A DNA stretch of 33,624 nucleotides. It comes from a virus. Its lineage: Duplodnaviria > Heunggongvirae > Uroviricota > Caudoviricetes. A model generated the notes under the pieces. It was not told the DNA's origin and did no database searches. It worked only from the letters and a program-made list of their open reading frames with translations. The stretch lies in IMG/VR virus record IMGVR_UViG_2531839474_000013, positions 1-33,624 of that record, one strand, 5' to 3'. The position numbers and the translations under genes are program-made. Positions 7,496-15,882 of the stretch are shown piece by piece; position 1 is the first letter of the stretch; each line of letters opens with the position of its first letter.

Positions 7496-8713
7496 TTATT
7501 TGCCAGTGAGCGCCTTGATGGCTGCCACATCTTCCAGCACACAGTCAAAACGATGGAAAGCCAGAAATGCCACCTGATCAAACTCAGCATAACGCTCAAC
7601 CAGACGTTTCAGTTCCATATAAGTAACGCGGCGAATGATAAAGCGGTTGAAATCCCCCAGGAAAATGAATTTTTTTCCGGTACCAATCCCGTCAATAGCC
7701 TGATCAATAACATAAGGGATCCCCAGCACAGTAGCCGGCGTACCGCCTGCAATATCCGGCAGCCATAACGGGCGTTTCTGCCCATCCTCCATCTCTTCAA
7801 TAGTCTGCAATGTGGCATCATTGAATGCCCAGCGGTATTTCGGCCCACCACGATATGCCGGATCAATGGCATGTTTCAGGGCATTCATTTCTTTCCAGGT
7901 GAAAGCGGCAGAGGCTGCAGTCTGGATGGTTCCCGTCACCGACGCTGCCAGCCCTTTTGGCTGTAACGGTGATCCCGTTCCGGTCCCCTGAACCAGATAT
8001 TTTGCCTCTCCACGACCAATACGCTGGGCAATACGGTTTGCCAGATAAGATTCAATATCCACCCCACTATCCTGGAGCAGCTCATTGGACACACGAATTA
8101 TTTTTGATGACAGCTTTTTAGCCCCCAGAATAGCGGTCCCGAACGTCACATCTTGTTCCGTTGCGGCTGTATTTTCCGCCAGCAGTTCGCCCTCTTCAGT
8201 CGTGCCATCAGACGTTGACCAGGTGATATCCTGCCCGGTTGATGTGGTCAGAAGTTGCGCCACACTGGCAATCCCGCCATAAGCCTTCATGGTGTCAATG
8301 ATTTTGTTACGCATCTGCGTGGGCACCGTATATCCGCCCTGAGAATCCGTTGTTACACTCTGAGCCCGCAGTTCACGCATCAGATTACGCTCTTCAGCAT
8401 TCAGTTCTGCAAATCCGGCACGCAGAAAACGGTTAAATGCCGCAGCGCGCTTCTCTTCCACCGCCTTTTTCCCGTTCTCCGCCTCATTATTCTGGCGCTC
8501 TTCCGGCCCGGACTCATCCACATATGCCTGATCCTGACGGCGCAACTCTTCTTCACGGGCGATTTGCTCATCCAGCGCATCCAGCTCAGCTTTCGCCCTG
8601 TTCCACTCTGCCCGTTGCTCATCAGTCCATGCGTTATCACCAATTTTTTCATGCAGTGCACGCATATCCTTTGCAATGGTGTTTCGTTTTTGCTTCATCT
8701 CATGAAGTTTCAT
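7496..8713 (-). CDS. major capsid protein, HK97 family
   Basis: 405 aa with a coiled-coil N-terminal delta-like segment and an HK97-fold-like C-terminal region; follows the protease gene. Confidence 0.9.
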   Translation of the reverse strand: MKLHEMKQKRNTIAKDMRALHEKIGDNAWTDEQRAEWNRAKAELDALDEQIAREEELRRQDQAYVDESGPEERQNNEAENGKKAVEEKRAAAFNRFLRAGFAELNAEERNLMRELRAQSVTTDSQGGYTVPTQMRNKIIDTMKAYGGIASVAQLLTTSTGQDITWSTSDGTTEEGELLAENTAATEQDVTFGTAILGAKKLSSKIIRVSNELLQDSGVDIESYLANRIAQRIGRGEAKYLVQGTGTGSPLQPKGLAASVTGTIQTAASAAFTWKEMNALKHAIDPAYRGGPKYRWAFNDATLQTIEEMEDGQKRPLWLPDIAGGTPATVLGIPYVIDQAIDGIGTGKKFIFLGDFNRFIIRRVTYMELKRLVERYAEFDQVAFLAFHRFDCVLEDVAAIKALTGK

Positions 8714-8727
8714 CGTCAGTAGTATCC

Positions 8728-9327
8728 TTATGCATTAAGAAGGGTCAAAAGACGCTCACGCGCCATTCGTTCGTTAACAGCTTTCTTCAGCGCACCACTC
8801 GCCCGCGCTTCCTGCCAGGCTTTCATTGAGCGGACACCAGAGTCTGCGTCCTGATAGGCCGGATATGTCACCGGGCTGACGTCATACAGACGAGAAATGC
8901 GCGTGATTTCCCGGATAACAATCCCCTCGTCGTCTTCATACCAGCTCTCTCCATCACGGGCGACGCGAAACGCGAACGAGGACTGATTAATGTCACCACG
9001 CAACATTGGTGACAGCACCAGGTCACAAATCGTCGGCGTATCCGGTGCAACAATGTCATAACGCAAACCACGTTCATCCACTGATAATGACAACGTGCCG
9101 GCAGAACTTCGTCCGAGAATGAAATTAGGATCATGATTAAACAAGCCACGTACATCATCATTCAGCACGTCGTCAAAAGCCCCCGGCTTGATGATTTCAC
9201 GAAATCCCCACAGAGGTTCTGAACGACTGTTAAATACCGAGCCATACCCCAAAATATGAGTCGGGGCATTATCATATTGTTCTGCCCGCACTTCCCCGCA
9301 GTAACAGCGCGTTTCACGGTCATTCAT
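8728..9327 (-). CDS. prohead protease, HK97 family
   Basis: Start placed at ATG 9327 (AGAGGAAAAG upstream) overlapping the portal stop; sits between portal and capsid. Confidence 0.8.
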   Translation of the reverse strand: MNDRETRCYCGEVRAEQYDNAPTHILGYGSVFNSRSEPLWGFREIIKPGAFDDVLNDDVRGLFNHDPNFILGRSSAGTLSLSVDERGLRYDIVAPDTPTICDLVLSPMLRGDINQSSFAFRVARDGESWYEDDEGIVIREITRISRLYDVSPVTYPAYQDADSGVRSMKAWQEARASGALKKAVNERMARERLLTLLNA

Positions 9328-10546
9328 CGTTCTTTTCCTCTTTGCCTTTCGTATCTTTAAAATCATTCAACGGATTTGCTGCATTTACGCTGACCAGCAT
9401 TTCATCCAGACCATCAACCGGGTTCATGTCCTCAAATGCCCTGGCTTCATTCCGGCTCATCCAGCCATCTGTAATGGCAAAGTGATAAAACTGCGCACGC
9501 TCCTGTGGAGTCCCGCGGAGCAATCCTGTAAGGTTGAAACGAACGTAATACCCGGCAGCCCGTTCTGTGCGGGTAAACAGGCGACGGTTAAGCTCCTGCT
9601 CCCAGTTCGCAACCCAGGGCATCATCGTGTAGCGAACAAACTGAATCGCCTGCTGCGTAATATTCGAAAATGTGGCTTTTTCCAGGTCATTAATCATGTG
9701 CGCCGGGACATTAAAAATTCCGGCAATCATCGACCGGTTCAGCTTGGTCATATCAATGATCTGAGCATCCACCGGAGAAACTGTCAGGGCACGGTAATCC
9801 AGTTGCGCAGGCAGCAGCATGGTTTTATTTTCCTGACTGCGAAGCGCTGTCACCGCCCGCTGCCACATATTCTTGAGCCTGCTCCAGCTCTGTTCGTTCA
9901 GTTCATTTTTCACAGAGATAATCCCGGCAGGACGGGCATTACCGTTAAAAAAAGCACTGGTATACTGCTGACCACTCATTCCCATACCAATGGTTTCAGC
10001 ATGCTGCATGATCGGACTCAGTCCCATTTTTTGATTGTTTCCCAGCGCCCTGATATGGATCATGTCGTCCGGACTTACCGCAAATGCCCCCTCTTCGTTA
10101 TACACCCCGTAGGTATGACGCCCACCAGTATTAAGTAACGTGGTTTCCCATGGCATACAGCATTCAAGACTGGTAACCTCGCCACGACGATTACGTTTTA
10201 CCCACGTATAACCATTGCCCCACCCCAGCACATGACGCTGCTTCAGTTCCCGCCACTTATAGCTGGTCTGCCAGGCATTAGGTTCATCATGAACGAGCCA
10301 GAACAACGGATGATCGCGTGCCGGCTGAACATGCTCATTCGTTTTTCGCATCACATGCAGGGGCATCTGAGCCACACTGGATGAAATAACATAAATACAG
10401 GCATAGACAGCAGCCAGCTTCATGGATGTTTCCGGACTGACATACACATCCCGGGCAAAAATATTATCCGTCTCAGCGGCCTCTCCGGTTACCGGAACCG
10501 AGGGATTTTCCAGAGGCTCACTGCGAAACAGAGCATCAAGAAGCAT
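9320..10546 (-). CDS. portal protein, HK97 family
   Basis: 408 aa between terminase large subunit and protease. Confidence 0.9.
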   Translation of the reverse strand: MLLDALFRSEPLENPSVPVTGEAAETDNIFARDVYVSPETSMKLAAVYACIYVISSSVAQMPLHVMRKTNEHVQPARDHPLFWLVHDEPNAWQTSYKWRELKQRHVLGWGNGYTWVKRNRRGEVTSLECCMPWETTLLNTGGRHTYGVYNEEGAFAVSPDDMIHIRALGNNQKMGLSPIMQHAETIGMGMSGQQYTSAFFNGNARPAGIISVKNELNEQSWSRLKNMWQRAVTALRSQENKTMLLPAQLDYRALTVSPVDAQIIDMTKLNRSMIAGIFNVPAHMINDLEKATFSNITQQAIQFVRYTMMPWVANWEQELNRRLFTRTERAAGYYVRFNLTGLLRGTPQERAQFYHFAITDGWMSRNEARAFEDMNPVDGLDEMLVSVNAANPLNDFKDTKGKEEKNDE

Positions 10547-10676
10547 GTTTTCTCCTCATGGACACCACCAGTGCATAAAGCAGCAACAAACAGCCAGACA
10601 GCATCAGAGACGCTGGCAGACCTGCATAAAGATAAACGCCAGCAGTGAGCAAACCGAAACCGATCAGCCCGGTCAT
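10536..10676 (-). CDS. possible small hydrophobic protein (46 aa) between terminase and portal
   Basis: ATG-initiated ORF MTGLIGFGLLTAGVYLYAGLPASLMLSGCLLLLYALVVSMRRKHAS; its stop overlaps the portal start. Ribosome-binding site is weak; too short for the ORF track. Confidence 0.25.
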   Translation of the reverse strand: MTGLIGFGLLTAGVYLYAGLPASLMLSGCLLLLYALVVSMRRKHAS

Positions 10677-10693
10677 ATCAGTAATAAGCTGTT

Positions 10694-12451
10694 TCACAGA
10701 ATTAACAGGTCCTCATCAGGATCAAGCGTGGACAGAAAGTCATTCACGCCCCCACCATTTACCAGAAAGCGGCTCATGGCTGTAAAAAGCGCAACAGGGC
10801 CGTCGATTTTGGCTTCCGGCGTGGATTTATTCGGGAAGATATTGTCGTTTTTGTCCGGTTTTACCGTAACGTTAGACATCATCCAGTTCATGACCGGATG
10901 ATTGCTGTGATGGAAACGCCCGGCATAGACCAGTGATTCCGTTTCCTTCATGGCCTCTGACAGATTGCGGACCGTCTGCGGAACCTCCACCAGCGGTATC
11001 CCTTCTTCAGCCAGTGCCAGGCTGAACTGCATTGCGCTCCACGGGTCAAATCCCAGTTCCCTGAGGTTTTCACCGCCAATCCATTCCAGTAAGTCACTTT
11101 TTATCTGAGCATGATCGATAACATCACCATCCGTCAGGATGAGCTTATCCATCTCCGCCCACTTCCGGTAAAGTTCTGCCTGCTGCCGTGAACACCGTTC
11201 CAGTCGCCCTTCCGGAAGCCAGAATTTAAAATCAGCATGAACATGCCCGTTATCCGTTCGCCAGAGTTTTGCCACCGCACAGATATCAATCTTATGAGCA
11301 AGGTCGACGCCGACCCACATGGGATACGTTTTCAGCTCATGCTGTGGAGCGATGTATTCGCACTTCTCCCACTTAATCATATCCATCCAGGCAGATTCGG
11401 CAGTGACCCACACATTCATGTGTTTGGTAAAAAAATTCACCCGCGCAGAGACCTGTTCCTTCGCTTTTTTCGCCAGACGACGCAGATCATCCCAGCGTTT
11501 ACAGATGCCCAGGCCAGGATTCGCTTTCTGCCAGACCGTTTCATCAAACGGATCATCTCCCTCATCGAGGGTGTAAATAATCGCAAAGTAGGAGTCGTCT
11601 TTTACCGCGCCATCCACGTCGCTGTTATAGCCACGCAATACCTTGATGGCGTAATCGCGTTGCTCGTAACAAATCCCTTCCTTGTTAAAGCCAGCCGTGG
11701 TGATACCAAATAAAAGGGACTGCAGACGGGCACCGGTTGCCGTTTCCAGAACGTCCCACACGTCGCGGGTTTTATGTGCATGCAGCTCATCAATAATGGC
11801 GCAGTGGATGTTCAGACCGTCCAGGTTGTTTGCATCCGAGGAAAGCGGTTCAAATTTTGATGCGCTCTGCTCCTGGTAAATCGCCAGCTTGTTGAAATCA
11901 AACAACCGCCCGAGTGTCGACCGGGCTTTTCTGACCATATTTTTGGCGTCTTCAAACACGATTCTGGCCTGGTCACGCGTGGTTGCGGCTGAATACACCT
12001 CAGCCCCGCCTTCACCATCTGCCCCCGTCATATACAGACCGATACCCGATGACAGGGTTGATTTTGCGTTTTTACGGGCAACTTCGTTGTATGCTGTCCG
12101 GAACCGGCGCACCATCACCGGGCGCCCGCTGCCATCGCTGCGCATGACAACTTCCCCGGTCTCTTCATTGACCAGCGGAATGACAAAACCAAAAATATTA
12201 ATGAGGATAAATACATGCCAGTCCATCAACTCAATAGGCTGGCCTGCCAGCGCCCCTTTTACATGAGGCACAAATTTGTAGAAATTCAGGATGTGCTGCG
12301 CACGGGGTTCACTGAAATAAATCCCCCGCTCTTCGCCGTACTTCAGGTCATCAAGAAAACGCTGGCAGGCCAGGCGGACAAATTCGCCAGCAACAATTTC
12401 TCCTGCAACAACACGTTCGGCGTAGCGGATCCCGTCAGCCACTTTTGCCAT
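10694..12451 (-). CDS. terminase large subunit
   Basis: 585 aa in the canonical position upstream of portal; start overlaps the small-subunit stop. Confidence 0.95.
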   Translation of the reverse strand: MAKVADGIRYAERVVAGEIVAGEFVRLACQRFLDDLKYGEERGIYFSEPRAQHILNFYKFVPHVKGALAGQPIELMDWHVFILINIFGFVIPLVNEETGEVVMRSDGSGRPVMVRRFRTAYNEVARKNAKSTLSSGIGLYMTGADGEGGAEVYSAATTRDQARIVFEDAKNMVRKARSTLGRLFDFNKLAIYQEQSASKFEPLSSDANNLDGLNIHCAIIDELHAHKTRDVWDVLETATGARLQSLLFGITTAGFNKEGICYEQRDYAIKVLRGYNSDVDGAVKDDSYFAIIYTLDEGDDPFDETVWQKANPGLGICKRWDDLRRLAKKAKEQVSARVNFFTKHMNVWVTAESAWMDMIKWEKCEYIAPQHELKTYPMWVGVDLAHKIDICAVAKLWRTDNGHVHADFKFWLPEGRLERCSRQQAELYRKWAEMDKLILTDGDVIDHAQIKSDLLEWIGGENLRELGFDPWSAMQFSLALAEEGIPLVEVPQTVRNLSEAMKETESLVYAGRFHHSNHPVMNWMMSNVTVKPDKNDNIFPNKSTPEAKIDGPVALFTAMSRFLVNGGGVNDFLSTLDPDEDLLIL

Positions 12452-12933
12452 CAGTCTCTCGCTTTTAAAAGCTCCGCCAGCGGATCAACATCATCCGGTC
12501 CGGCAATATTTACTTTGGCCCGGCTTGCCGGTGACATACCAAACTCTGCAAGCATCGCCCGGATCCGCTTCCAGGCATCCGCCTTCATCGCAGCAGCCGG
12601 GTGTGCCTTAATCAGCACATCACCGTTCTGCGTTTCCGTGCGGTAGGTATAACCCTCAGCATCAAGTGTTTCGCAGTGATGCCGGTATTCGGTGTAGGCT
12701 TCCACCAGTAACTCGAGTGCACGCGCATCAAGCTGAGAAATGATCCCTTCCGCATTCAGTTCTTCCGCCATTCGCCTGAACCAGTACTTCCCCTGCGACC
12801 CTAAATGTTGCGGAATTTTAGGGAGACCTTTTTCATCCTTTTTAGCGGTTTTTTTGGGGTCTTTAACGGGGCGCTTTGAGGGGTTGCCTCGTATCAAATG
12901 CAGGCGTGGCGGGGTTTTCGGGGGTCCGGACAT
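12451..12933 (-). CDS. terminase small subunit (P27-family-like)
   Basis: 160 aa with a basic, Lys/Pro-rich N-terminus, directly upstream of the large subunit. Confidence 0.85.
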   Translation of the reverse strand: MSGPPKTPPRLHLIRGNPSKRPVKDPKKTAKKDEKGLPKIPQHLGSQGKYWFRRMAEELNAEGIISQLDARALELLVEAYTEYRHHCETLDAEGYTYRTETQNGDVLIKAHPAAAMKADAWKRIRAMLAEFGMSPASRAKVNIAGPDDVDPLAELLKARD

Positions 12934-13473: not shown

Positions 13474-13941
13474 CTACTTAATGCACTGAGTGCGGATATA
13501 CTCCTGTGCCCCTTCCAGTTGCATCTGCATCGTCATCAGCCGCTCTCTGAGGGTGAAATAATCCCGTTCAGCGGTGTCTGCCAGTCGGGGGCTGGTTGCA
13601 TTATCCACGCTGGTGGGTCCGGTGGCTTCACGCACGGCTGCGGAGCAACTGGCATTGACCCGCAGGCGCTTACGACCAGCGGCAACATCAGCGCGCAGAG
13701 TTTCATTTTCAGCTTTCGCATTAGCTAATTCTCTCGAGTACTTTGCATCGAGCGCAGCAACATCACGCTGACGCTGCTGCATGTCAGCGATGGTGGCAAT
13801 CACCTGCTTCAGCTCACCGACTTTTTTATCACGCTGTTCTTTGTAGGCGATGGCGTGATCACGGTAATGATTAACCGCCCATGACAGGCAGACGATGATG
13901 CAGATAACCAGAGCGGAGATAATCGCGGTTACTCTGCTCAT
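13474..13941 (-). CDS. Rz: i-spanin Rz
   Basis: [28 protein letters not shown]... is near-identical to lambda Rz. Confidence 0.9.
13536..13721 (-). CDS. Rz1: o-spanin Rz1 lipoprotein, embedded in the +1 frame of Rz
   Basis: [33 protein letters not shown]: signal peptide, lipobox and proline-rich segment, lambda Rz1-like. Confidence 0.85.
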
Positions 13942-14414
13942 ACCTCAATCTCTCTGACCGTTCCGCCTGCTTCTTTGAATTTTGCAATCAGGCTGCCAAC
14001 TTTATGCTCGAACTGACCATAACCAGCGCCCGGCAGTGAAGCCCAGATATTGCTGCAACGGTCGATAGCCTGACGAATATCACCGCGATCAATCATTGGT
14101 AAAGCGCCACGCTCTTTAATCTGCTGCAGTGCAACAGCGTCCTGGCTTTTCGGAGAGAAGTCTTTCAGGCCAAGCTGCTTGCGGTAGGCATCCCACCAAC
14201 GGGAAAGAAGCTGGTAACGTCCAGCTGCGGTTGATTTAAGTTGCGGGTTTAGCGTGACAAGTTTGCGAGGATGATCGGAGTAATCCGTGAATAGCTCACC
14301 ACCTACAATAACGTCGTAGCCGTGATTGCGGGTTGGCTGTCGCCCGTTATCCGTTCCTTCTGACCACGCCAACATATCGAGGAAAGCTTTACGCTGGGAA
14401 TTTAGTACCTGCAT
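13938..14414 (-). CDS. R: endolysin, lambda R-type lytic transglycosylase
   Basis: 158 aa; [22 protein letters not shown]...[18 protein letters not shown] is near-identical to lambda R. Confidence 0.95.
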
Positions 14415-14417
14415 AAA

Positions 14418-14753
14418 TTACTCCTTAGAGCCACCAAACTTGTTACCGATTACTCGCATTGCAGCCCCACGAATAGCATCGACACCGATCAGCCCCACGC
14501 CGCCACCAATAGCAACAGAAAGTGATTTAGGCCATCCGACATACTCAAGAGCGGATGCAAAGGTCAGCGTCAGAGCGCCACAGAGCAAAATCTCGAGCGT
14601 TTTTCGCTTCCAGCCACCACCACCGCCAAAATAGGCGATGCGCAAACCAGCCATAACGATCGACATAATCACTGCACCCAGCGGTGTGTCTCCACGCCAC
14701 CAGCTCTGAAACAACTCCAGCCAGTCCGGCCAGGTATTTGGGTTATGAGGCAT
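14418..14753 (-). CDS. holin (lambda S-family-like, three predicted TM segments)
   Basis: Start placed at internal ATG 14753 (GAGGTGAGAG upstream), giving 111 aa with hydrophobic segments and a charged C-terminus, directly upstream of the endolysin. Confidence 0.8.
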   Translation of the reverse strand: MPHNPNTWPDWLELFQSWWRGDTPLGAVIMSIVMAGLRIAYFGGGGGWKRKTLEILLCGALTLTFASALEYVGWPKSLSVAIGGGVGLIGVDAIRGAAMRVIGNKFGGSKE

Positions 14754-14829
14754 TTCGTCATCTCTCACCTCGCGATATTTGCGGGTGCTGTGTTGGAAAT
14801 AAAAAGGCCACGCAACGTGGCCACCAGAA

Positions 14830-15882
14830 TTATTTCCCCACCAGTTCACTTACCTCTTTCGCCGTCTGATTAAACCGCTCTGACTCAAGTTCAACACCTA
14901 ACGCCCGACGCCCCAGCGCCATTGCTGCTTTTATTGTGGAACCGGATCCCATAAAGAAATCAGCAACCAGATCACCAGGTCGACTACTGGCATTGATTAT
15001 TTGCCGGAGCATATCCGCCGGTTTCTCGCACGGATGTTTACCCGGGTAGAACTGAACGGGCTTATGCGTCCAGACATCGGTATAAGGCACGGAGACTGAT
15101 ACGGAGAAATAGCGCCGGAGAGATTTAAACTCATCCAGCAATTCAGAATATTTGCGATTCAGTGAATCATAAGATGCCACCAGCTGGTGGTGTGGTTGTT
15201 CCAGTTGTTGTTCCTGAAACTTCTCTGCCGCTATACGGGAAAACAGTGCCTGTAACTTCCGATAGTCAGCCTCATTCGGCAACTGCCACTGACTGGCACC
15301 AAACCAGTGGGAAACCATATTTTTCTTACCTGTGGCTTCGGCAATTTGTTTTGCCGTTATACCCAGTTCGGCACGAGCATCCCTGAAATACGATATCAGC
15401 GGTGCCATTATGTGCTGTTTGAGTTCCCTTTCTTTTGCCGCATAGCCGTCACTTTTGGGCTGATATGGTCCCTGATAATGTTCAGCAAACAGAATGCGTT
15501 CTGTTGCCGGGAAATACGCCCGCAGGCTTTCCTTGTTACACCCGTTCCAGCGCCCGGACGGTTTCGCCCAGATAATGTGATTCAGCACATTAAAGCGTTC
15601 ACGCATCATGATTTCGGTGTCAGATGCCAGGCGATGACCACAGAACAGGTAGAGACTTCCGGCAGGTTTCAGTACCCGCCAGAATTGCGCCAGACACTGA
15701 TCCAGCCATTTCAGGTAATCATCGTCGCCCTTCCACTGGTTATCCCAGCCCTCGGGCTTCACTTTAAAGTATGGCGGGTCTGTGACTATCAGATCGACAG
15801 AGTTTTCCGGTAAGGTCTGGATAAATTCCAGGCAATCAGCGTTGATTAACTCACAACTGGATATTTTTACAGTATTAACCAT
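14830..15882 (-). CDS. DNA N6-adenine/N4-cytosine methyltransferase, beta class, orphan
   Basis: N-terminal DPPY motif (VTDPPYF) and C-terminal FxGxG motif (FFMGSGST); no adjacent restriction endonuclease gene. Confidence 0.85.
   Translation of the reverse strand: MVNTVKISSCELINADCLEFIQTLPENSVDLIVTDPPYFKVKPEGWDNQWKGDDDYLKWLDQCLAQFWRVLKPAGSLYLFCGHRLASDTEIMMRERFNVLNHIIWAKPSGRWNGCNKESLRAYFPATERILFAEHYQGPYQPKSDGYAAKERELKQHIMAPLISYFRDARAELGITAKQIAEATGKKNMVSHWFGASQWQLPNEADYRKLQALFSRIAAEKFQEQQLEQPHHQLVASYDSLNRKYSELLDEFKSLRRYFSVSVSVPYTDVWTHKPVQFYPGKHPCEKPADMLRQIINASSRPGDLVADFFMGSGSTIKAAMALGRRALGVELESERFNQTAKEVSELVGK

What the first reader, a model, noticed from the sequence alone, without database searches (positions are those of the whole stretch)
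10536..10676. Possible 46-aa membrane peptide ORF between terminase and portal
An ATG-initiated hydrophobic ORF fills the 147-bp gap and overlaps the portal start. Its ribosome-binding site is weak, so it may be a translated small protein or just the portal leader.
Basis: seen in the sequence. Interest (0 to 1): 0.2.

Follow-up and report, generated by a model that had tools for sequence, protein, structure and literature searches.

The report
Small membrane-protein gene between terminase and portal

Summary
The ORF is real, but it lies on the minus strand and is longer than reported: 53 codons (10697→10536). It starts at a GTG that overlaps the terminase (TerL) stop (GTGA) and ends 11 nt inside the portal gene.

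- **Start:** Relatives use an ATG at the GTG position (ATGA).
- **Integrity:** the ORF is a normal 52-53 codons in 29 of 30 distinct DNA versions; the exception is a deletion-junction fusion.
- **Selection:** purifying selection is specific to this frame (pS 0.63, pN 0.25).
- **Family:** it matches PHROG 7105 end to end and is already annotated (WP_000811487.1, hypothetical protein).
- **Product:** a two-helix membrane hairpin with a basic C-tail. The portal's Shine-Dalgarno sequence lies in its last codons.
- **Inheritance:** it is exchanged between phages as one cassette with the last ~18 residues of TerL and the portal.
- **Presence or absence:** HK97, mEp235 and Pm34 lack it. phi467, ST64B and phiKO2 carry a remotely related hairpin (PHROG 502) in the same slot, and Sfi21 carries an unrelated one (DUF1056).

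No function is published for any of them. My best guess, with low confidence, is an accessory inner-membrane factor tied to the portal and packaging vertex. Overall this is an ordinary, already annotated gene inside a modestly interesting recurring pattern.

The parts
10536..10697 (-). Small gene: 53 codons plus TGA, encoding MKQLITDMTGLIGFGLLTAGVYLYAGLPASLMLSGCLLLLYALVVSMRRKHAS (PHROG 7105; identical in coordinates to the 162-nt CDS WP_000811487.1 / VUF53252.1 in near-identical records)
10694..10697 (-). GTGA junction: the GTG start of the small gene (10697-10695) overlaps the TerL TGA stop (10696-10694). Relatives have ATGA here. Translational coupling is inferred from this arrangement.
10710..10714 (-). 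GAGGA Shine-Dalgarno-like element inside the last TerL codons, 12 nt upstream of the GTG (dG -6.0). It is present in both GTG-start lineages and weak or absent in ATG-start relatives.
10674..10676 (-). It is the internal Met8 codon, has no SD (dG +0.4), and is not conserved in relatives.
10623..10676 (-). Hydrophobic core of helix 1 (residues about 8-25). It is glycine-rich: G13, G20 and G26 are invariant, G10, G15 and Y22 nearly so, and L23 is invariant. The model helix spans residues 2-25.
10611..10622 (-). Tight turn (G26-L-P-A), uncharged; G26 is invariant
10557..10610 (-). Helix 2 (residues about 30-47) with one conserved face (L31, G35, L39, A42, A46; permutation p = 0.0004)
10539..10556 (-). 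Basic C-terminal tail RRKHAS, predicted cytoplasmic by the positive-inside rule. Its codons also serve as the portal's SD and the portal's first codons.
10552..10557 (-). Portal Shine-Dalgarno GAGGAG (dG -9.4, 5 nt before the portal ATG), embedded in small-gene codons 47-49
10536..10546 (-). 11-nt overlap between the 3' end of the small gene and the portal start (ATG 10546-10544). The geometry is the same in the enterobacterial and Morganella-type relatives examined. Ralstonia phage Dina has an ATGA overlap instead.
10694..10752 (-). TerL C-terminal tail (about the last 18 codons, ...FLSTLDPDEDLLIL). It is inherited together with the small gene and portal rather than with the rest of TerL. The mosaic breakpoint against phi467 and mEp235 is at about 10752.
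10694..12451 (-). Terminase large subunit gene (upstream neighbour)
9320..10546 (-). Portal gene (downstream neighbour)

Best explanation
SHOWN. The TerL-portal interval encodes a genuine protein-coding gene of 53 codons (10697→10536, minus strand) that has been kept intact and under purifying selection across Enterobacterales, Ralstonia and other proteobacterial HK97-type phages. Its product is almost entirely hydrophobic and is modelled as a helix-turn-helix hairpin: helix 2-25, a break at the invariant G26, then helix 27-52.

INFERRED from sequence rules. It inserts in the inner membrane with both ends in the cytoplasm (neutral N-terminus and turn, C-tail charge +2 to +4). It is made late, from the structural operon transcript. 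There is no promoter or terminator of its own. Ribosomes finishing TerL probably reinitiate at the overlapping GTGA/ATGA, and ribosomes finishing the small gene stop 8 nt past the portal ATG, whose SD lies in codons 47-49. Expression of TerL, the hairpin and the portal would therefore be chained.

SHOWN. The gene moves between phages as one cassette with the last ~18 residues of TerL and the portal. Other portal lineages carry a different hairpin in the same slot (PHROG 502, DUF1056) or none (HK97, mEp235, Pm34). It is therefore an accessory, not a core part of HK97-type assembly.

INFERRED, low confidence (about 0.25). It acts at the inner membrane in connection with its cognate portal and packaging vertex. 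It could hold nascent portal or prohead initiation complexes at the membrane, or tether the TerL-portal mRNA there through co-translational insertion. This would be functionally analogous to the membrane-bound portal initiator of T4, which depends on gp40.

The confidence figure given below refers to the gene, protein and expression statements, not to this functional guess.
For: **Coding**
- 29 of 30 distinct nucleotide versions are a normal 52-53 codons; the one exception is a deletion-junction fusion.
- In the ORF's frame pS is 0.63 and pN is 0.25. In the other two frames pS/pN are 0.34/0.37 and 0.24/0.41. Differences by codon position are 699/388/1148.
- Median pN/pS is 0.36 against 0.17 for the portal in the same pairs.
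- The antisense frames carry stops in relatives.

**Start**
- ATGA in all relatives, GTGA in the window.
- Full-length match to PHROG 7105, E = 9e-20.
- D7 and K2 are conserved upstream of Met8.
- Four independent annotations call the same 162-nt CDS.

**Hairpin**
- Hydropathy profile and charge distribution.
- AlphaFold2 pLDDT 82 from the single sequence and 87 with a 40-sequence alignment.
- One-sided conservation on helix 2, p = 0.0004.

**Late, coupled expression**
- No promoter-like or terminator-like site on the minus strand in 10300-11300.
- SD energies at the candidate starts.
- Conserved 4-nt and 11-nt overlaps with the neighbours.

**Cassette with the portal**
- Loci whose TerL C-terminal 200 aa are only 34-42% identical still keep the ORF next to a portal that is 76-87% identical.
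- The window's TerL is 96-100% identical to phi467's up to residue 540 and unrelated over the last ~18 aa. That tail type tracks the type of small protein.

**Accessory status:** the gene is absent from HK97, mEp235 and Pm34.

**T4 precedent:** a membrane-bound portal initiator that depends on gp40 (PMC9958956).
Against: - No experiment on this protein or on any relative was found.
- Co-inheritance with the portal could be pure linkage. The 11-nt overlap leaves no room for a recombination joint downstream, while the conserved TerL tail offers one upstream.
- The protein exposes only about 7 N-terminal and about 6 C-terminal residues to the cytoplasm, which is very little surface for binding a soluble portal.
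- HK97-type heads assemble without any such protein in HK97 itself.
- The Halomonas phage QHHSV-1 record has the gene frameshifted. If that is real, the gene is dispensable there.
- Translational coupling and membrane topology are inferred from sequence, not measured.
Confidence: 0.85

Rival explanations
1. Host-membrane modulator of the moron or host-takeover type. The hairpin would bind a host inner-membrane protein or block DNA entry by other phages (superinfection exclusion, as HK97 gp15 does), unrelated to head assembly.
For: - It is a small inner-membrane protein, present in some related phages and absent in others.
- PHROGs files the related family 502 under 'moron, auxiliary metabolic gene and host takeover'.
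- Its GC content is slightly low: 0.481 against an amino-acid-matched expectation of 0.536 ± 0.024.
- HK97 gp15 is a precedent for a small membrane protein inserted in a structural operon (PMC3594210).
- With nearly the whole protein buried in the bilayer, its partners are most likely membrane proteins or lipids.
Against: [quoted passage not shown] Here none was found on the coding strand, and the gene overlaps both neighbours.
- No PADLOC hit.
- No homologue was found outside the TerL-portal slot in any context examined.
Confidence: 0.2
2. Lysis-timing protein (holin, pinholin or antiholin-like). The hairpin would oligomerise in the membrane and affect when lysis occurs.
For: - It has two transmembrane helices, a basic C-tail, glycine-rich helices and a conserved packing face.
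- 2 of 19 family members give weak Pfam Phage_holin_3_6 hits (best E = 0.0028).
Against: - The window has a complete lysis cassette about 3-4 kb away: holin/antiholin (phrog_126), endolysin, Rz and Rz1.
- The small gene is never next to an endolysin in any locus examined.
- The weak holin hits are at a level expected from membrane-protein composition.
- Met8, the possible 'dual start', is not conserved.
Confidence: 0.07
3. Pure translational spacer or portal leader. Only the act of translating the interval matters, because it delivers ribosomes to the portal start, and the peptide itself has no role.
For: - Overlaps at both ends, with the portal SD inside the ORF.
- In HK97, mEp235 and Pm34 the TerL stop and the portal start overlap directly, so coupling is the ancestral logic of this junction.
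Against: - The amino-acid sequence is under frame-specific purifying selection, with several invariant residues (D7, G13, G20, L23, G26, G35) and a conserved hydrophobic hairpin out to Ralstonia phages.
- Length is fixed at 52-53 aa.
- Three unrelated or remotely related families in this slot all have the same two-helix membrane topology.
- There is no significant RNA structure.
Confidence: 0.07
4. One reading: a 46-aa product initiated at ATG 10676, either alone or as a second isoform.
For: - An in-frame ATG exists at 10676 in this E. coli lineage.
- The 46-aa form still matches PHROG 7105 over profile positions 9-52.
Against: - No SD at this ATG (dG +0.4).
- Met8 is replaced by V, L, I or A in all other lineages.
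- Residues 2-7 upstream are conserved.
- All annotations use the upstream start.
Confidence: 0.05
5. A lambda gpW-like head-tail joining protein or other virion component, as some records label the related PHROG 502 proteins.
For: - The gene order matches lambda's W, between the terminase gene A and the portal gene B (from my own knowledge of the lambda map).
- Several phage records label the slot-mates 'head-tail joining protein W'.
Against: - No Pfam hit of any kind, gpW included.
- The protein is a hydrophobic membrane hairpin, not a soluble protein.
- No related chain exists in any solved structure, phage particles included.
Confidence: 0.03

Closest known systems
PHROG 7105 (unknown function), including RefSeq WP_000811487.1 and Escherichia phage Evi VUF53252.1
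   Same: Full-length profile match (E = 9e-20), the same 52-53 aa length, and the same TerL-X-portal position with the same overlaps.
   Different: Nothing: the window gene is a member. The family has no assigned function.
PHROG 502 'membrane protein' (Salmonella phage ST64B Sb3, Klebsiella phage phiKO2 gp3, phiP27, SfI/SfII/SfIV, phi467)
   Same: The same slot between TerL and portal in HK97-type modules, a two-helix hydrophobic hairpin of about 60 aa, and aligned glycines. HMM E = 1.3e-6 and profile-profile probability 84%.
   Different: Different signature residues: YPPAG turn, C38 and W41-S-W, all absent here. It also has a longer polar C-tail, pairs with a different portal lineage and pairs with a different TerL tail. 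The homology is only suggestive, because membrane-protein composition inflates such scores.
Pfam DUF1056 (Streptococcus phage Sfi21 orf59c)
   Same: A 59-aa protein with two hydrophobic segments, encoded between TerL and portal of a Gram-positive HK97-type module.
   Different: No detectable sequence relationship (hhalign probability 1.2%, and no Pfam hit for the window family). It is a positional and topological analogue only.
Phage lambda gpW (head-tail joining protein)
   Same: The gene lies between the large terminase and portal genes (lambda gene order from my own knowledge). This is probably why some records mislabel the slot-mates as 'protein W'.
   Different: gpW is a soluble head-completion protein (my own knowledge). 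The window protein is a membrane hairpin with no Pfam match.
HK97 gp15 moron (superinfection exclusion protein)
   Same: A small inner-membrane protein encoded inside a late structural operon of an HK97-like phage (PMC3594210).
   Different: gp15 sits in the tail operon with its own promoter and terminator and is expressed from the prophage. It has YebO homologues in bacterial chromosomes. The window gene has no such signals, overlaps both neighbours, and was only ever found between TerL and portal.
T4 gp40 and the membrane-bound gp20 portal initiator
   Same: It is a precedent for a phage-encoded factor that supports portal-initiated prohead assembly at the inner membrane (PMC9958956).
   Different: No sequence comparison was made, the phage type is different, and the gene is not adjacent to the portal in T4 (my own knowledge). 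This is a functional analogy only.

Membership tests
PHROG 7105 | Full-length match to the family profile | tested here: met
   E = 9.4e-20, residues 1-52 against profile positions 1-52 of 52. All 19 aligned relatives match.
PHROG 7105 | Position between TerL and portal of an HK97-type head module | tested here: met
   Every locus examined has this position, apart from one prophage remnant (L073).
PHROG 502 'membrane protein' (ST64B Sb3 / phiKO2 gp3) | Significant match to the family profile | tested here: inconclusive
   E = 1.3e-6 over profile positions 7-52 of 58, much weaker than the PHROG 7105 match. hhalign probability 84%, E = 8e-6. Compositional bias of membrane helices cannot be excluded.
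PHROG 502 'membrane protein' (ST64B Sb3 / phiKO2 gp3) | Family-invariant residues (W23, A29-G30 in the YPPAG turn, C38, W41-S42) | tested here: not met
   Compare alignment A3 with the window family. None of these residues is present.
Pfam DUF1056 | Match to PF06341 above the gathering score | tested here: not met
   No hit for the window protein or for any of 19 relatives at E ≤ 10. The positive control Sfi21 orf59c scores 39.5 bits against a cutoff of 22.2.
Lambda gpW head-tail joining protein | Sequence match to the gpW family and a soluble fold | tested here: not met
   No Pfam hit. GRAVY +0.99 and a two-helix membrane hairpin model.
Holins (two-TMD class, pinholin-like) | Small protein with transmembrane helices and a charged C-terminus | tested here: met
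Holins (two-TMD class, pinholin-like) | Encoded in the lysis cassette next to the endolysin, as the phage's holin | tested here: not met
   A separate holin/antiholin, endolysin and Rz/Rz1 lie at 13474-14849. The small gene always lies between TerL and portal.
Holins (two-TMD class, pinholin-like) | Match to a curated holin family | tested here: not met
   Only 2 of 19 relatives gave weak Phage_holin_3_6 hits (best E = 0.0028), and the window protein gave none.
Holins (two-TMD class, pinholin-like) | Membrane permeabilisation on expression | not testable with these tools
   Needs an expression experiment.
Moron (HK97 gp15 type) | Own promoter and terminator | tested here: not met
   No consensus site on the minus strand in 10300-11300, and the gene overlaps both neighbours. 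Criterion taken from PMC3594210. The scan is a simple consensus scan, so weak promoters could be missed.
Moron (HK97 gp15 type) | GC content different from the surrounding genes | tested here: inconclusive
   0.481 against an amino-acid-matched expectation of 0.536 ± 0.024, about 2 SD.
Moron (HK97 gp15 type) | Expression from the repressed prophage | not testable with these tools
   Needs transcript or protein data from lysogens.
T4 gp40-like portal assembly factor | Sequence or structural homology to gp40 | not tested
   No gp40 sequence was compared. None of the PHROG matches (7105, 502, 4810, 5525) is annotated as a head-assembly chaperone.
T4 gp40-like portal assembly factor | Requirement for portal-initiated prohead assembly at the membrane | not testable with these tools
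   Needs genetics and imaging.

The most novel reading that the evidence does not exclude
The small two-helix hairpins encoded between TerL and portal (PHROG 7105, PHROG 502, DUF1056) would form an unrecognised functional class shared by Gram-negative and Gram-positive HK97-type phages. They would be membrane tethers, co-adapted with a particular portal and TerL C-tail. Through co-translational insertion or direct contact, they would place portal synthesis, prohead initiation or the packaging motor at the inner membrane.
Probability: 0.12. Interest if true: 0.6.

Novelty: already known. Interest (0 to 1): 0.25.

Why it matters
For this window it mainly corrects the annotation. The gap is a real 53-codon gene with a GTG start, not a 46-codon ATG ORF and not an untranslated leader.

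More broadly, the cassette is present (at least 80% coverage of a 701-nt query) in 630 of 5426 complete E. coli genomes, about 12%. A small membrane hairpin recurs at the same position in the packaging and head modules of well-known phages: SfV, ST64B, phiKO2, phiP27 and Sfi21. Despite that, none of these proteins has an assigned function, several records omit them, and some mislabel them as lambda W.

Because the hairpin is exchanged as a unit with the portal and the portal-proximal tail of TerL, it is a cheap and well-defined target for a knockout study. Such a study could reveal a membrane step in HK97-type head assembly or packaging. It could equally show that the protein is a late-expressed host-membrane modulator.

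Tried and rejected
- **Word-indexed protein search with the single sequence:** found only near-identical proteins.
- **Exhaustive phmmer over 1.84 billion representatives:** only 20 hits at E ≤ 0.001, none with a name.
- **Pfam, NCBIfam and PADLOC:** nothing meaningful.
- **Foldseek against viral predicted structures:** no match at E ≤ 0.001, as expected for a bare helical hairpin.
- **PDB sequence searches with both family profiles:** nothing relevant.
- **Nine literature searches:** no functional study. Papers on genes 'between the terminase and portal' in SPP1, Microbacterium and Arthrobacter phages concern unrelated insertions.
- **Lactococcus phage r1t as a DUF1056 example:** the wrong module type. 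Sfi21 was the right one.
- **Structured RNA leader:** rejected, fold z = -1.1.
- **Antisense 159-aa ORF on the + strand (10422-10901):** rejected, because antisense frames carry stops in relatives.
- **Lipoprotein reading of the L33-S-G-C36 motif:** rejected, because C36 is not conserved (S, G or A in relatives) and lies too far from the N-terminus.
- **Programmed frameshift fusing the hairpin to the portal:** considered because of the fused 131-aa protein P0022. No conserved slippery site is evident, and the portal frame is closed 3 codons upstream of its ATG in the window. The fusion is best read as an indel or sequencing error.
- **The 81-aa 'long form' (P0004, L073):** a deletion junction with a core chromosomal gene, not a variant of the gene.
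Full report
**Observation.** All genes in this part of the window are on the minus strand.
- Pfam identifies the terminase small subunit (12451-12933), the terminase large subunit TerL (10694-12451), the portal (9320-10546), an S78 prohead protease (8728-9366) and an HK97-type major capsid protein (7496-8713), preceded by an HNH endonuclease.
- Between the TerL stop and the portal ATG lie 147 bp.
- The frame is open further upstream. A GTG at 10697-10695 overlaps the TerL TGA (GTGA) and gives a 53-aa product.

**Which start is real.**
- The 53-aa form matches PHROG 7105 over the whole profile (residues 1-52 against positions 1-52 of 52, E = 9e-20). The 46-aa form matches only positions 9-52.
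- RAST (phage Evi), PGAP (E. coli EPSSH018, WP_000811487.1) and two independent phage annotations all call the same 162-nt CDS.
- In every diverged relative the start is an ATG at the position of the window's GTG, forming ATGA with the TerL stop. The window's GTG arises because the last TerL leucine codon is CTG rather than CTA.
K2 (39 of 40) and D7 (40 of 40), which lie upstream of it, are conserved.
- Anti-Shine-Dalgarno pairing is +0.4 kcal/mol for the ATG at 10676, -6.0 for the GTG (GAGGA, 12 nt upstream) and -9.4 for the portal ATG.
- ATG-start relatives have weak SDs (-1 to -4.7). The two GTG-start lineages (the window and Salmonella phage F1055) both have GAGGA. This fits initiation mainly by termination-reinitiation, helped by an SD where the start codon is weaker. 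That is an inference.

**Is it a gene.** In the window alone, an open frame of this length is unremarkable: about 10% of shuffles keep it open. The comparative evidence settles it.
- Across 95 loci (phage records, IMG/VR contigs, species-representative genomes) there are 30 distinct nucleotide versions. Twenty-nine are a normal 52-53 codons, and the one exception (L073) is a prophage deletion junction.
- Among ten lineages with saturated synonymous divergence, mean pS is 0.63 and pN is 0.25 in the ORF's frame. In the other two frames pS/pN are 0.34/0.37 and 0.24/0.41. Differences by codon position are 699/388/1148.
- Median pN/pS is 0.36, against 0.17 for the adjacent portal in the same pairs.
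- The antisense frames, including the 159-aa + strand ORF at 10422-10901, contain stops in relatives.
- The region has no significant RNA structure (z = -1.1).
- Rare disrupted alleles exist as singletons (P0005, P0006, P0022), and the Halomonas phage QHHSV-1 record is frameshifted after codon 30.

**The protein.**
- It is almost entirely hydrophobic (GRAVY +0.99), with a neutral N-terminus (K2, D7), an uncharged tight turn (G26-L-P-A) and a basic C-tail (net +2 to +4 in most of the family).
- AlphaFold2 gives a two-helix hairpin: helix 2-25, turn, helix 30-51 at pLDDT 82 from the single sequence; and helices 2-25 and 27-52 at pLDDT 87 with a 40-sequence alignment.
- Invariant residues are D7, G13, G20, L23, G26 and G35. 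Nearly invariant residues include K2, L4, G10, G15, Y22, L31, L39, A42, L43 and A46.
- Helix 2 is conserved on one face (p = 0.0004). Helix 1 is glycine-rich all round.
- By the positive-inside rule both ends should be cytoplasmic. This is inferred.
- The C-tail codons also serve as the portal's SD (GAGGAG at 10552-10557) and the portal's first codons, so part of their conservation is imposed by the portal.

**Context and inheritance.**
- The window's packaging and head region is 99.9% identical to Escherichia phage Evi over the 701 nt tested. The cassette is present (at least 80% coverage) in 630 of 5426 complete E. coli genomes.
- The order HNH, TerS, TerL, small gene, portal, protease, capsid, with 4-nt and 11-nt overlaps, recurs in Yersinia and Pragia prophages.
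- The gene is in the same slot in Ralstonia phage Dina, Salmonella phage F1055 and Halomonas phage QHHSV-1.
- The gene goes with the portal, not with TerL. Loci whose TerL C-terminal 200 residues are only 34-42% identical still have the small gene next to a portal that is 76-87% identical.
- Conversely, phi467 has a TerL that is 96-100% identical to the window's in every 45-residue bin up to residue 540. It is unrelated over the last ~18 residues and is followed by a different small gene and a different portal.
- The TerL tail type tracks the downstream cassette. '...LS.LDPD(D/E)(D/E)LL.L' goes with the PHROG 7105 gene, even in Ralstonia and Halomonas phages. '...GIRSL' goes with phi467 and ST64B. 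Other tails occur where TerL and portal overlap directly (HK97, mEp235, Pm34).
- No promoter-like or terminator-like site lies on the coding strand. GC content is only mildly low.

**Relatives and analogues.**
- A profile search found 173 clusters. They are nearly all 49-55 aa, all 'hypothetical' or 'membrane protein', and come from Enterobacterales plus an Actinobacillus.
- The small gene of phi467 is a strong PHROG 502 member (E = 7e-27).
- PHROG 502 occupies the same slot in SfI, SfII, SfIV, ST64B (Sb3), phiP27, phiKO2 (gp3) and PY54. Records label it 'membrane protein', 'putative integral membrane protein' or, wrongly, 'head-tail joining protein W'. It is very common: one cluster alone sits on about 1000 contigs.
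- The two families align with 84% hhalign probability (E = 8e-6) and matching glycines. They differ in signature residues, and membrane-protein composition inflates such scores.
- Streptococcus phage Sfi21 has a 59-aa DUF1056 protein (orf59c) with two hydrophobic segments in the same slot. It has no detectable similarity to the window family.
- HK97 itself has nothing there.

**Mechanism.**
- Shown: it is a conserved, selected coding sequence for a hydrophobic hairpin. It overlaps both neighbours. It is inherited with the TerL tail and the portal. It is accessory among HK97-type modules.
- Inferred: inner-membrane insertion with both ends in the cytoplasm, late expression, and chained translation from TerL through the hairpin to the portal.
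- Best guess, about 0.25: a role at the membrane tied to its cognate portal and packaging vertex, loosely analogous to the gp40-dependent membrane-bound portal initiator of T4 (PMC9958956).
- Co-translational insertion of a membrane peptide could also hold the polycistronic message, and so portal synthesis, at the membrane. This idea rests on my own general knowledge of membrane-protein mRNA localisation in E. coli and was not tested.
- Against the guess: linkage alone explains the co-inheritance, and the protein exposes very few residues to the cytoplasm.

**Rivals.**
- Late host-membrane modulator or exclusion protein, about 0.2. It fails the promoter and terminator criterion for morons.
- Holin-like lysis-timing role, about 0.07. 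The phage has its own complete lysis cassette.
- Pure coupling spacer, about 0.07. This is contradicted by selection at the protein level.
- The 46-aa ATG product, about 0.05.
- gpW-like virion protein, about 0.03. There is no Pfam hit, the protein is hydrophobic, and no related chain exists in the PDB.

**Verdict.** The feature is real and is a gene, but its coordinates should be 10536-10697 (minus strand) with a GTG start. It is already annotated in public records and belongs to an existing family of unknown function, so it is not new. What is mildly interesting is the recurring pattern: unstudied two-helix membrane hairpins wedged between TerL and portal, exchanged together with the portal and the TerL C-terminal tail. 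Interest 0.25.

Noticed in passing
window 10694-10752 (-), compared with L103 (phi467), L102 (mEp235), L104 (Pm34), L105 (ST64B), L096 (Dina), L097 (Halomonas): The last ~18 residues of TerL form a separate mosaic unit. The window's TerL is 96-100% identical to phi467's in every 45-residue bin up to residue 540 and unrelated afterwards. The tail type (LDPDEDLLIL, GIRSL or others) tracks which portal and small-gene cassette follows, even across TerL proteins that are only 34-42% identical elsewhere. This fits a portal-docking role for the TerL C-tail.
   Followed up: partly
L097 3501-3690 (Halomonas phage QHHSV-1, KX879752.1): The homologous small gene is split by an apparent 1-nt frameshift after codon 30 and is annotated as a 30-aa CDS. 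The rest of the protein continues in another frame. This is either a sequencing error or evidence that the gene is dispensable in a cultured phage.
   Followed up: no
L006 (phage SfV, NC_003444.1 about 2289-2450); also L004 (Klebsiella phage 1 LV-2017), and SfIV and PY54: The small gene is intact but not annotated in these reference records. In SfV the portal CDS is annotated from record position 2392, about 16 codons upstream of the conserved GTG start (MLLDALF...), so it runs over the unannotated small gene.
   Followed up: partly
Phage records ON470580.1, ON470603.1, ON470584.1, PQ793804.1: PHROG 502 membrane hairpins in the TerL-portal slot are labelled 'head-tail joining protein W'. This looks like a positional transfer from phage lambda that does not fit a hydrophobic two-helix membrane protein.
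   Followed up: partly
L073 1-243 (IMGVR_UViG_2778261163_000008); protein P0004: An 81-aa ORF fuses 32 foreign N-terminal residues to residues 5-53 of the small protein. The first ~95 nt match 5392 of 5426 E. coli genomes, so they belong to a core chromosomal gene (from memory, it looks like the start of modE). This is a deletion junction of a prophage remnant that has lost TerL and everything upstream.
   Followed up: partly
window 10695-10714 (-); L098 (Salmonella phage F1055): The two lineages that start the small gene with GTG both have a GAGGA element upstream (dG about -6). ATG-start relatives have weak or no SD (-1 to -4.7). This may be compensation for the weaker start codon.
   Followed up: partly
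window 10422-10901 (+): A 159-aa ORF runs antisense across the end of TerL, the small gene and the start of the portal. In relatives the antisense frames over the small-gene segment contain stops, so it is a shadow ORF rather than a gene.
   Followed up: yes
window 13474-15882 (-): Upstream of the packaging genes lie a complete lysis cassette and a DNA methyltransferase: holin/antiholin phrog_126 within 14418-14849, endolysin 13938-14414, Rz 13474-13941 with Rz1 embedded at 13536-13721, and the 350-aa methyltransferase at 14830-15882. The ORF layout here differs from the annotated phage Evi record, so the window is Evi-like in the head region but mosaic elsewhere.
   Followed up: partly
protein P0022 (131 aa): In one contig the small gene is fused in frame to the portal N-terminus through an indel near codon 40. 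It was read as an error or pseudogene rather than programmed frameshifting, but this was not examined at the DNA level.
   Followed up: no
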